From NCBI RefSeq assembly GCF_009914755.1, contig NC_060932.1: DNA of 64,000 bases, one strand, 5' to 3'. Of the stretch, positions 48,501 to 51,500 are shown one piece after another (positions within the stretch are counted from its first letter, which is position 1; each line of letters begins with the position of its first letter). A model generated the notes under the pieces. That model did no database searches, had not been told where the DNA came from, and saw nothing but the letters and a program-made list of their open reading frames with translations. The stretch is from the human T2T-CHM13v2.0 reference genome, Homo sapiens. A program made the position numbers and the translations under genes.

Positions 48501-51500
48501 CGGGTTCACTGGGCTCTGGGCGCGGCGTAGTGCCGCAGGATGGGGTTTGGTGCCACGGGGCATGTGTGTGGAGTCAGCAGTCTCCACCATGGGGGCTGTC
48601 GTCTTTTCCCTTATTCTCAGATTGTGGGACAACTCGTAGGGCCAAGATGTCAGTCTGGTTATTTCCTGTGGGTTTTTATGAGTTTCATCACTTTACTTTA
48701 GATAACTGTGCAGGATCGTGGGTTTCTTTAATTTCAAGAGCTGTGAGGCTGCTGGTTCCTGGGGCACGCAGTGTCTCTAAGCTTCATCCCAGCCCTCACC
48801 CTCTGTCACCCCCTCCAATCCCTGATGGGCAAGGCGGGGGCAGTCCTCCTGGGACTGATCCCAGAGAGCCTGAACTCCAGGCAGCCCCTGAGGCCATGTG
48901 GGGGGGTCGCTGTGTTAGCAGCTCCTGCTGGCTGTGGGGTGACGAGGGCCCAGGCCCAGGCACCCGTGGGACCCCTCAGAGCAGGCCGCTGGGATGCACT
49001 TTCGGAGCTGCGGGGCTGCAGCTGAGCCTGGAAGCTCCAGAAGGACCAAGTTGCTTGGAGAAGCAGAAGGTGCCTTTCCAGGACAGCAGAGCTAAGAGGA
49101 GGCACAGACTCAGAACCAGGGTCAGGCTGCAGGCAGGCAGTGGGGCCCCATGCCATAGCTTGGAGACATCGAGGAAGGTTCCAGCAGGTTCTGATGGGCC
49201 TGGGGGGATGGATCCTGTGCCTCCCCTCGCCAGCCTGCCCATGTCTCCTTTAGGACACAAGCTCAGTGGCCCCTCGGCAGGCGCACCATGCCTGTGTCTT
49301 TGGAATGGCCATTTTCTGGGCTCACAAAGGAGCCAGGATGATTGGAAAATGGCAGGCAGTTGGGTTGCTGGTGTTTGGTTGCTGGAGACGCCTGTGATTT
49401 GGAGCAAAGCCTGCTACTGTGTTGCAGCCACTGAATGGCGCTCCAGCTGGACGCCACGTGGACCCAACAGGCCCCACTCAGACTCACTCCACGGGGCTAG
49501 CAGACTTGACCTCTCGATTTCACAGGGTCAGCTGGAGGCCCACCAGGAGGAAGGCATGGTGATCTCCCACATGGCCGTGTCCGGCGTCGGGATCTGGATT
49601 GCCTTCACCTCAGGGTCCACGCTCCGCCTTTTTCACACGGAAACTCTCAAGCACCTGCAGGACATCAACATCGCCACCCCTGTTCACAACATGCTGCCAG
49701 GTAAGGGGACGGGACGGGGCCCAGGGATGGGACAGCAACCGGGGACGGACGTGGGGGGTGCGGAGCGCTGTCAGCCCACCTTAGCGCTTCCCAGTGCAGG
49801 ACACTGTTCACAACATGCTGCCAGGTAATGGGGTGGGACAAGGCCCAGGGACAGACGTGGGAGTACGGAGCATGGTCAGCCCACTTTAGCGCTTCCCGGT
49901 GCAGGGCACAGGTCCTGAAGGAGCCGCGTGCTGGGAGGAGCCGCGTGCTGGGAGGAGCCGCGTGCTGGGAGGAGCCGCGTGGCAGTGCCATCTCTGTAGG
50001 TCAGAGTGGGTGGGAGACGATTTCTCATCATCGGTGCAACAAGGCCCTGGGGAAGCCAGGACCTGAGGCTGAAGAACACAGAACAGGAGGCCTCCCTTTG
50101 GCTGGGAGGGCTGTTGGGGAGAGGCCAACAGAGGCCTATGTTTGTGAATGCCCTGTTGCTGGTGGGTGTCACTGAAGTTTCTGGGCAGGGGAGAAGGCCA
50201 TTACACATTGAGTTTTGGGAGGATCATCCTACAACAGGATGGAGGAAAGAAATGAGGAGGGGGCCCAACCGGCTTCTTTCACGGGTAGCCGGAGGCCGCT
50301 GTGGGGTCCGTGGAAGGGCTGTTTTGCTTCTTTGCCTGCTGGTGGGTATTGGAAGACATTTGCAGTTTTAAGGGGAAGGCATGAAGTAAGGGCTCTGCCT
50401 CCGAGCCCTTCGGCTGCTGTGACACACGCCACAGACGGGCTGGCTTACAAGCCAGAGAGGCTGCCCCTCCGCGTTCTGGAGGCAGCATGCCGGGGAGCAC
50501 GGTGCCTGCAGGGCCGGTTTCTGGGAGGATCTGCTTCCTGCTTTGCAGTTGGTGCCTTCTGGCTGGGGCCTCATGTGGTGAAGAAAGAGCCCTGGGGTCT
50601 CCTCCGCTTCCTATAAGGGTGCTAATCCCATCATGGGGACCCTATCCTCATGAGCTCATCTAACCCTAATCACGTCCCCAAAGCCCCGCCTCCTCGCACC
50701 ATCCCACTGCGGGCAGGGCTTCAACATCGAAATCTGGGGAGACACAAACATTCAGTCCATGACGGGCCATTTATGATACGTTGAAAAAAACCACAATGAT
50801 TAGGGGTCTGGTTCTAGAACGGGTGTGAGGCCGTCCTTTGACAAGGGGAGGATGAGGAGGCCGAGGAGGTGTTGAGGATGTTCCTCGGGGCCTCCGTGTC
50901 CCCGCCGCACTCCCACTGGAGATGGGAGGGTGAATATATTCGGTGCACGGTGGGTCCATGATAGCCGTTCTTTTCTCAGGGGCTAACTGTACAAGTCATT
51001 GTTAAAATACTACAGGAGATTTCTCTTAGTGAGAAAAGGAGGTTTATGTAACATGCAAGTTTATATTTAGAGAACCAAAATGGTTAAGTCCCTGTGGCTC
51101 AGAAAGCAGACGCTCTGCTGTGGACCTTGTGTTTTCTTTGGAGCACTCACTGCTAGAGCAAATGTTTGCTGCAGGAATAGGCTGTCCTTGTTGGGACAAA
51201 ACCAAGTCACATCCGTAATTGCCAAAGCACGCTCTCACGCGGCAGTGAGTGTCCATGTGTTCAAAGTTCTGTACACAAGGGGAGGTGAGGAGGGTGTTAT
51301 GAGAAAAACCTCTCCACTCGACCTCCCGTGGGCTCCAGCACCCGAGCCTCCAAATCCTGCCCCAGCTGCCCTGCAGCGCAGACCTCCCTCCGGGGCGAAG
51401 CAGCCCACGGTTACCCTGGTTCCAGAGTTCCGAGAGCAGCCACGGAAATGCAGCGGCCCTGCAGGATCCTTGGTGTTTATCCCTCTCCGGGTGGGATCAG

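What the first reader, a model, noticed from the sequence alone, without database searches (positions are those of the whole stretch)
49680..49910. Duplicated exon-27 splice donor predicts an NMD-escaping isoform with a novel ~143-aa C-terminus
Seen: the last 21 nt of the exon plus the donor (CAG|GTAAGG at 49700) are repeated 124 nt downstream (CAG|GTAATG at 49824), with no in-frame stop in between (GKGTGRGPG...SQHAA). Splicing 49824 to 56793 shifts the frame by +1. That frame stays open through all of exon 28 ([22 protein letters not shown]...SQSDR) and stops only at TGA 61037-61039 in the last exon. By the exon-junction rule such an mRNA would escape NMD. It would swap ~211 C-terminal residues of the WD40-like region for ~143 G/P/R-rich residues and leave DH-PH intact. 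The copy is also a ready back-up donor if the canonical site is mutated. Actual use of the second donor is inference.
Basis: partly seen in the sequence, partly recalled or inferred. Interest (0 to 1): 0.75.

Follow-up and report, generated by a model that had tools for sequence, protein, structure and literature searches.

The report
Duplicated ARHGEF10 exon-27 splice donor
A small old tandem duplication gives human ARHGEF10 exon 27 a second, weaker splice donor that RefSeq already lists as an alternative exon end, and its product would be a truncated protein that is probably a minor by-product, so the finding is real but ordinary.

Summary
A two-copy tandem duplication (unit 1 49680-49803, 124 nt; unit 2 49804-~49908, 105 nt; 92 of 105 aligned bases identical) repeats the last 21 nt of exon 27 plus GTAA. 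This gives donors CAG|GTAAGG (49700) and CAG|GTAATG (49824).

Splicing 49824>56793-56915>60853 ends at TGA 61037 in the last exon. It replaces 211 residues with 143 G/R/P-rich ones.

It is not new: the hub's RefSeq table already lists exon 49526-49824.

The new tail shows no coding signal. The switch cuts Pfam WD40_2 at about position 270 of 488. An open extension and an open +1 frame in exon 28 are expected together by chance about one time in eight.

The canonical donor pairs better with U1 and is followed by 7 G-runs.

Read-through ORFs in a protein database suggest three things:
- The 19 extra nt in unit 1 are a later insertion that removed an in-frame TAG.
- The duplication predates a primate-like split.
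- A bovid-like lineage duplicated the same junction on its own.

Most likely this is a low-level, NMD-insensitive, non-functional isoform and a likely cryptic donor. Transcript data could not be consulted.

The parts
49526..49700 (+). Canonical ARHGEF10 exon 27 (phase 0 start, 58 codons plus 1 base)
   Evidence: Hub RefSeq table. The translation matches Pfam WD40_2 profile positions 213-269 of 488, E 5.4e-32.
49680..49803 (+). Tandem duplication unit 1 (124 nt): last 21 nt of exon 27, the canonical donor and 103 nt of intron
49804..49908 (+). Tandem duplication unit 2 (about 105 nt): copy of the exon end, the second donor and the intron start
   Evidence: 92 of 105 aligned bases identical to unit 1
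49698..49706 (+). Canonical donor CAG|GTAAGG
   Evidence: 8 of 9 consensus positions; U1 duplex -11.5 kcal/mol; 7 G-runs in the next 60 nt
49822..49830 (+). Second donor CAG|GTAATG (T instead of G at +5)
   Evidence: 7 of 9 consensus positions; U1 duplex -8.1 kcal/mol, stronger than 5 of the 15 constitutive donors in the window. The hub table lists exon 49526-49824.
49701..49824 (+). 124-nt exon extension of the alternative transcript, open in the exon frame, 67% G+C
49733..49757 (+). Stretch of unit 1 holding the 19 surplus nt that are absent from unit 2 and from the primate-like ORF P0138. The surplus puts TAG 49782-49784 out of frame and makes the extension length equal to 1 mod 3.
49826..49828 (+). 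TAA inside the second donor. It ends the exon-27 frame if intron 27 is not spliced at 49824.
56793..56915 (+). Exon 28 (123 nt), open in both the canonical and the +1 frame
   Evidence: The canonical frame matches WD40_2 positions 271-310; the +1 frame has no Pfam hit.
60853..61039 (+). Part of the last exon read in the shifted frame, ending at TGA 61037-61039
   Evidence: The shifted-frame piece has no Pfam hit.

Best explanation
An old tandem microduplication across the exon 27 / intron 27 boundary of ARHGEF10 left a second, weaker 5' splice site 124 nt inside the intron.

The spliceosome mostly uses the canonical site. That site pairs better with U1, and a dense cluster of G-runs lies between the two donors. 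Such runs are known to favour the upstream donor (recalled, not checked here).

Occasional use of the distal site gives the transcript variant that RefSeq already annotates (exon 49526-49824). If that exon is joined to exons 28 and 29, the +1 frame ends in the last exon. The mRNA should therefore be blind to EJC-dependent NMD. It would encode ARHGEF10 with an intact DH-PH module, about 55% of its WD40_2 propeller, and a 143-residue tail of non-coding character.

Shown here: the duplication, the two donors, the frames, the stop and the position of the domain cut. Taken from the hub annotation: that the exon exists. Inferred: low usage, NMD escape, an unstable or non-functional product, and a role as a cryptic donor if the canonical site is damaged.
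For: - Duplication.
- Donor strengths: 8/9 against 7/9 consensus positions and -11.5 against -8.1 kcal/mol.
- G-runs: 7 between the donors. Only 0.8% of 1830 intronic 124-nt windows reach 7, and it is the highest count after any of the 15 donors.
- Frames and stop.
- RefSeq exon 49526-49824: hub table.
- Domain cut: WD40_2 mapping is exon 27 = 213-269, exon 28 = 271-310, last exon = 312-488 of 488. The shifted-frame pieces have no Pfam hit.
- Extension composition: GC1/2/3 of 0.74/0.68/0.59 against 0.56/0.41/0.64 for the CDS.
- Chance: the extension is open in 47% of 20000 Markov simulations and in 412 of 753 intronic 124-mers with GC of 0.62 or more. The +1 frame is open in 4 of 15 exons.
- Primate-like ORF: P0138 carries the short form of unit 1 with an in-frame stop. 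The open frame in human therefore looks like a by-product of a 19-nt insertion.
Against: - The 25 nt that include the copied exon end and GTAA are identical in both units, while the other 80 aligned columns carry 13 differences (Fisher one-sided p = 0.023). This could mean that the second donor is kept by selection. The excess weakens once one allows that unit 1 is constrained as coding sequence: P of no change is then about 0.12.
- I saw no read counts, so low usage is inferred only from site strength and from the choice of the RefSeq 'selected' transcript.
- The exon chain downstream of 49824 is not given in the hub table. With the other annotated 3' structures the stop would fall at 56917 or 59412.
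Confidence: 0.65

Rival explanations
1. The distal donor yields a selected, functional isoform: a C-terminally remodelled RhoGEF. It would lack the second half of the propeller and the canonical C-terminus, and NMD escape would make it stable.
For: - Perfect identity of the 25-nt exon end plus GTAA in both copies, against 16% divergence elsewhere.
- The open extension, the open +1 frame of exon 28 and the stop in the last exon.
- The exon is annotated (hub table).
- The same junction was duplicated independently in a bovid-like lineage.
Against: - No coding signature and no family match in the tail.
- The cut falls in the middle of the WD40_2 domain.
- The joint chance of the open frames is about 0.12.
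- The short ancestral form had an in-frame TAG.
- No paper on such an isoform appeared in four full-text searches.
Confidence: 0.1
2. The second donor is essentially silent in normal cells. The RefSeq exon reflects a rare or aberrant cDNA or model. The site matters only as a cryptic donor when the canonical GT is mutated.
For: - T at +5 and weaker U1 pairing.
- The G-run cluster upstream of it.
- Only 1 exon entry among 23 transcripts (hub table).
Against: The site is as good as or better than 5 of the 15 constitutive donors of the same gene. It is also the donor nearer to the acceptor. Gene models normally need transcript support.
Confidence: 0.2
3. The duplication is an assembly artefact or a private structural variant of this haplotype, so the second donor is not a general feature of the human gene.
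For: None found. I could not compare other human assemblies.
Against: - The copies differ at 13 positions and by a 19-nt indel, so this is not a recent or collapsed copy.
- RefSeq places an exon end exactly at the second donor (hub table).
- A database ORF cluster of 27 member sequences (P0002) carries the same extension with 1 difference in 393 residues.
Confidence: 0.03

Closest known systems
Ordinary alternative 5' splice site (A5SS) events that extend an exon and shift the frame
   Same: Two GT donors share one exon start. The distal donor is weaker, adds 124 nt and shifts the frame. It is annotated as an alternative exon end.
   Different: Here the second site is a literal copy of the first, made by tandem duplication, not a chance GT. 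The shifted frame happens to run into the last exon, so the usual coupling to NMD is predicted to fail.
Splice-site duplication by short intragenic tandem duplication (Rogers model; Hellsten et al. 2011, PMC3265369, passages read)
   Same: A short tandem duplication that includes an AG|GT junction creates duplicated splice signals that the spliceosome can recognise.
   Different: In that work the duplication lies inside coding sequence and creates a new intron that restores the mRNA. Here it spans an existing exon-intron border and creates two competing donors for the same intron.
Cryptic donor activation after loss of the authentic 5' splice site
   Same: A nearby consensus-like GT 124 nt downstream is the best other GT in the next 400 nt: 7 of 9 consensus positions, against 6 of 9 for the next candidate at 50000.
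   Different: No patient variant or minigene was examined. This is only a prediction.

Membership tests
Tandem (head-to-tail) segmental microduplication | Two adjacent copies in direct orientation with significant similarity along the whole unit | tested here: met
   units 49680-49803 and 49804-~49908, 92 of 105 aligned bases identical, E about 1e-12 and 1e-11, no third copy in the window
Alternative 5' splice site event | Two donor sites with GT and a consensus-like context downstream of one exon start | tested here: met
   CAG|GTAAGG and CAG|GTAATG. The hub table lists exons 49526-49700 and 49526-49824.
Alternative 5' splice site event | Both donors are joined to the same acceptor in real transcripts, with measurable usage | not testable with these tools
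   No RNA-seq, EST or transcript records could be reached. The hub table gives exons but not exon chains.
NMD-insensitive frameshift transcript (last-exon rule) | The termination codon lies in the last exon, or less than about 50-55 nt upstream of the last junction (rule recalled) | tested here: met
   TGA at 61037, 184 nt downstream of the last junction, for the chain 49824>56793-56915>60853. With the other annotated 3' exons the stop is at 56917 or 59412.
NMD-insensitive frameshift transcript (last-exon rule) | The transcript level does not change when NMD is blocked | not testable with these tools
   Needs an experiment or public UPF1-knockdown data
Pfam WD40_2 (PF19056) domain of ARHGEF10/10L/17 | Exons 27, 28 and 29 encode contiguous parts of the profile above the gathering score | tested here: met
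   profile positions 213-269, 271-310 and 312-488 of 488, at 111.5, 72.5 and 167.3 bits (cut-off 22.5)
Protein-coding sequence (for the 143-residue tail) | Family match, or codon-position composition like the host CDS | tested here: not met
   no Pfam hit for the shifted-frame pieces; extension GC1/2/3 is 0.74/0.68/0.59 against 0.56/0.41/0.64 for the CDS. Conservation of the frame in other species was not testable.

The most novel reading that the evidence does not exclude
The second donor is kept by selection. In the lineage leading to humans, a 19-nt insertion in unit 1 converted a stop-containing extension into an open, frame-shifting one. By the position of that stop, the earlier extension should have been NMD-sensitive. 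The insertion thereby created a stable mRNA for a propeller-truncated ARHGEF10 with altered regulation or localisation. The independent duplication of the same junction in a bovid-like lineage, and the 465-codon stop-free frame around exon 27, would then hint that this exon border is a recurrent site of isoform innovation.
Probability: 0.06. Interest if true: 0.5.

Novelty: already known. Interest (0 to 1): 0.18.

Why it matters
- Variant interpretation. Variants that weaken the exon-27 donor of ARHGEF10, a neuropathy- and autism-candidate RhoGEF, may not cause simple loss of mRNA. They are predicted to shift splicing to 49824 and give an NMD-insensitive truncated protein.
- A small example of a general process. 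It shows how a tandem duplication makes an alternative donor, and how a later small insertion changes the predicted fate of the resulting transcript.
- Otherwise ordinary. It is an annotated minor isoform.

Tried and rejected
- Literature. Four full-text searches for ARHGEF10 with splice variant, WD40/C-terminal, A5SS, and alternative splicing/isoform gave no paper on this donor.
  - In some searches the passages found in those three papers mention only ARHGEF10L.
  - Two TCGA SpliceSeq papers list only an exon-skip event, ARHGEF10|82562|ES.
  - Supplements were not searched.
  - Two ARHGEF10 biochemistry papers (PMC3190991, PMC6548296) are not held, so I could not see what C-terminal deletions do.
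- A third copy of the unit at 50033-50051 (family D4) was rejected: BLAST E = 7.3.
- Rfam gave no match in 47500-51500.
- The 365-codon intronic open frame upstream of exon 27 was tested as hidden coding sequence. It has no Pfam hit and flat codon-position GC. No in-frame acceptor with a pyrimidine tract of 70% or more was found. Outside its own cluster, no other database protein covers it: the 25 other hits cover 13-35% of the query. It remains unexplained.
- MaxEntScan and SpliceAI scores could not be computed because their tables and models are not available. U1 duplex energy and consensus matches were used instead.
- The spliced proteins were not folded, because joined exon sequences may not be submitted.
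- The DNA behind the unnamed database ORFs could not be fetched. The primate-like and bovid-like comparisons therefore rest on translated ORFs only.

Full report
**What is in the sequence.** Reading 49440-50040 shows exon 27 of ARHGEF10 ending ...CTGTTCACAACATGCTGCCAG|GTAAGGGG at 49700. The same 25 nt (21 exon bases plus GTAA) recur at 49804-49828, giving a second donor CAG|GTAATGGG at 49824.

The repeat finder and a global alignment show that this is the start of a two-copy tandem duplication:
- Unit 1 is 49680-49803 (124 nt) and unit 2 is 49804 to about 49908 (105 nt).
- There are 92 matches and 13 mismatches, 11 of which are transitions.
- The net length difference is 19 nt.

BLAST of either unit against the 64-kb window finds only the other unit (E about 1e-12 and 1e-11). 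All other hits have E of 0.57 or more, including the apparent third copy at 50033 with E = 7.3. Tandem Repeats Finder did not report the pair. It did report a perfect 17-nt x 3.7 array directly downstream at 49919-49981.

**Frames.** I used the annotated exons from the hub table.
- The canonical chain from exon 27 gives 270 residues ending ...QIPLLNI* at 61365.
- The chain 49526-49824 > 56793-56915 > 60853 gives 202 residues ending at TGA 61037-61039, 184 nt inside the last exon.
- After the 58 full codons of exon 27 the canonical protein has 212 residues and the alternative has 144. The first of these (G) is shared, so 211 residues are replaced by 143.
- The tail is rich in G (24), R (18), P (17) and A (14).

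By the exon-junction rule (recalled: a stop must lie more than about 50-55 nt upstream of the last junction to trigger NMD), this mRNA would not be an EJC-dependent NMD target. Its 3' UTR would grow from 1378 to 1706 nt.

Other outcomes:
- If intron 27 is not spliced at 49824, the frame stops at TAA 49826-49828, inside the second donor.
- If the long exon were joined to the other annotated 3' exons, the stop would fall at 56917 (56793-58903) or 59412 (59213-62745).

**Is the second donor plausible, and is it used?**
- It matches 7 of 9 consensus positions, with T instead of G at +5. Its computed duplex with the U1 5' end is -8.1 kcal/mol. The canonical site has 8 of 9 and -11.5 kcal/mol.
- 5 of the 15 constitutive donors of this gene in the window are weaker than -8.1. 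The U1 motif and the consensus are recalled, and the measure is rough.
- The 124 nt between the donors hold 7 G-runs. Only 0.8% of 1830 intronic 124-nt windows reach 7, and no other donor in the window has more than 5 in its first 60 nt.
- From memory (McCullough and Berget, 1997; not read here), G triplets placed between duplicated donors favour the upstream one. That would help to explain why the canonical site dominates.
- Direct evidence of use comes only from the hub table: RefSeq lists an exon 49526-49824 among the other transcripts of the gene. The alternative donor is therefore already annotated. Which transcript carries it, with what CDS and on what evidence, I could not see.

**What the product would be.** Pfam places the exons within WD40_2 (PF19056, 488 positions):

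| Exon | Profile positions | E-value |
|---|---|---|
| 27 | 213-269 | 5.4e-32 |
| 28 | 271-310 | 3.7e-20 |
| last | 312-488 | 6.7e-49 |

- The alternative isoform keeps everything upstream, including DH-PH. Full-length orthologues carry PF00621 and PF19057.
- It loses about 45% of the propeller profile.
- The shifted-frame pieces of exon 28 and of the last exon match no Pfam family.
- The extension has GC1/2/3 of 0.74/0.68/0.59, against 0.56/0.41/0.64 for the 2595-nt CDS in the window.
- A paper on the paralogue TEM4 describes the C-terminal domain as a predicted seven-bladed WD40-like propeller and names ARHGEF10 and ARHGEF10L as close relatives (PMC3404065, passages).
- A review mentions a putative PDZ-binding motif in Arhgef10 (PMC7226772, passages). 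It does not say where the motif lies; if it is C-terminal, as such motifs usually are (my assumption), the isoform would lose it.
- That half a propeller is unlikely to fold is my inference.

**Is the open frame remarkable?** No.
- The 124-nt extension is open in 47% of 20000 first-order Markov simulations.
- Real intronic 124-mers are open in 412 of 753 cases with GC of 0.62 or more, and in 1615 of 7389 cases overall.
- The +1 frame is open in 4 of the 15 internal exons in the window, exon 28 included.
- Jointly this is about one chance in eight.

One hint of constraint exists. The first 25 aligned columns carry no difference while the other 80 carry 13 (Fisher one-sided p = 0.023). Unit 1 is constrained there as coding sequence and donor, so only unit 2 is free to change. 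The probability of no change is then about 0.12.

**History, from database ORFs.** The protein database holds naive ORF calls on vertebrate DNA that read from exon 27 into intron 27.

*P0002* (393 aa, unnamed, 27 member sequences) is the ORF from ATG 48647 through exon 27 and the whole extension to TAA 49826. It has 1 difference from the window.

*P0138* (69 aa, unnamed) has AVAGVG in exon 27, as the named non-human primates and Tupaia do.
- It continues after the exon as GKGVGRGPGMGMGVRSTVSPP followed by a stop.
- This equals human unit 1 read first in the exon frame and then, after the 25-nt stretch 49733-49757, in another frame. P0138 has 6 nt where human has 25.
- Read from its own donor, human unit 2 gives [21 protein letters not shown], of the same length.
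- So the short, 105-nt form with an in-frame TAG is probably ancestral. The 19 extra nt in human unit 1 are probably a later insertion that put TAG 49782 out of frame and made the extension frame-shifting. This is an inference from translated ORFs.

Differences between the forms:

| Comparison | Differences |
|---|---|
| Unit 1 vs P0138 | 2 of 20 residues |
| Unit 2 vs P0138 | 6 of 20 residues |
| Unit 2 vs unit 1 | 7 of 20 residues |

- This suggests that the duplication predates the split from that species.
- The Kimura distance between the units is 0.14 over all 105 columns and 0.19 over the 80 unconstrained columns. At a recalled neutral rate of about 1e-9 per site per year, that means tens of millions of years. 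The estimate is probably too high, because by my reading of the contexts printed, 4 of the 13 differences are at CpG sites.

**A second lineage.** Some unnamed ORFs have an exon-27 part identical to Bison and Capra ARHGEF10 (P0119, P0120).
- P0003 differs from P0004 by a 35-residue in-frame insert that repeats ATPVHHMLPGGASP. The rest is 204 of 206 identical.
- P0139 carries PPHAARWG shortly after the exon end. By my reading this is the exon end plus donor in a shifted frame.
- Of 91 database ORFs or models that read at least 12 residues past exon 27 into sequence that is not exon 28, 3 show a second copy of the exon end: P0002, P0003 and P0139. The motif scan would miss diverged copies.
- The breakpoints differ from the human ones: 10 or more residues of exon are copied, against 21 nt in human. 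I read this as an independent duplication in a repeat-prone, G-rich intron start. The underlying DNA could not be fetched.

**Literature.** No paper on this donor or isoform turned up in four full-text searches.
- In the three ARHGEF10/A5SS hits that I opened, the passages found mention only ARHGEF10L.
- The only ARHGEF10 splicing event seen in print was a TCGA exon skip.
- Supplements, where junction tables would sit, were not searched.
- The closest published concept I read is the creation of duplicated, usable splice sites by a short intragenic tandem duplication (PMC3265369, passages).

**Verdict.** The alternative exon end is already in RefSeq, the tail looks like translated non-coding sequence, the domain is cut in the middle, and the open frames are not improbable. 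The most likely reading (about 0.65) is a minor, NMD-insensitive, non-functional by-product of an old tandem duplication, with practical relevance as a cryptic donor.

Alternatives:

| Alternative | Probability |
|---|---|
| A silent site that matters only after mutation | 0.2 |
| A selected isoform | 0.1 |
| An artefact or private variant | 0.03 |

Interest is low.

Noticed in passing
window 48431-49828 (+): The exon-27 reading frame is free of stops for 465 codons: 365 codons of intron 26, exon 27 and the 124-nt extension. This is the longest stop-free stretch in all six frames of the window (the next is 239 codons; 5421 ORFs, mean 22.6). The other five frames of 48431-49525 hold 8-19 stops, and 0 of 5000 Markov simulations had none. 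It shows no coding signature, no Pfam hit and no RefSeq exon. A database ORF call (P0002) starts at ATG 48647. Unexplained.
   Followed up: partly
window 49919-49981: A perfect 17-nt tandem repeat (AGGAGCCGCGTGCTGGG x 3.7) lies directly after duplication unit 2. It is a likely copy-number-variable minisatellite.
   Followed up: no
window 48106-48321: A 35-nt tandem repeat x 6.2 (88% matches) in intron 26.
   Followed up: no
proteins P0003, P0004, P0139 (unnamed database ORFs, exon 27 identical to Bison and Capra ARHGEF10): A bovid-like lineage has its own duplication of the exon-27 end plus donor. P0003 carries an in-frame 35-codon insert that is absent from the otherwise near-identical P0004. 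P0139 carries an out-of-frame copy shortly after the exon end.
   Followed up: partly
window 49733-49757; protein P0138: Human unit 1 carries 19 nt that are absent from unit 2 and from a primate-like read-through ORF. Without them the extension would be 105 nt with an in-frame TAG at 49782.
   Followed up: partly
window 56775-56793 and 58903-59213: The other-transcript exon 51426-56775 ends 17 nt before exon 28, and CG, not GT, follows it. This looks like an alignment gap in a largely unspliced transcript and not like an intron. By contrast, 58903|GT...AG|59213 has canonical intron ends.
   Followed up: no
window 49701-49760: Seven G-runs lie in the first 60 nt of intron 27, the highest count after any of the 15 donors in the window (the next highest is 5).
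   Followed up: partly
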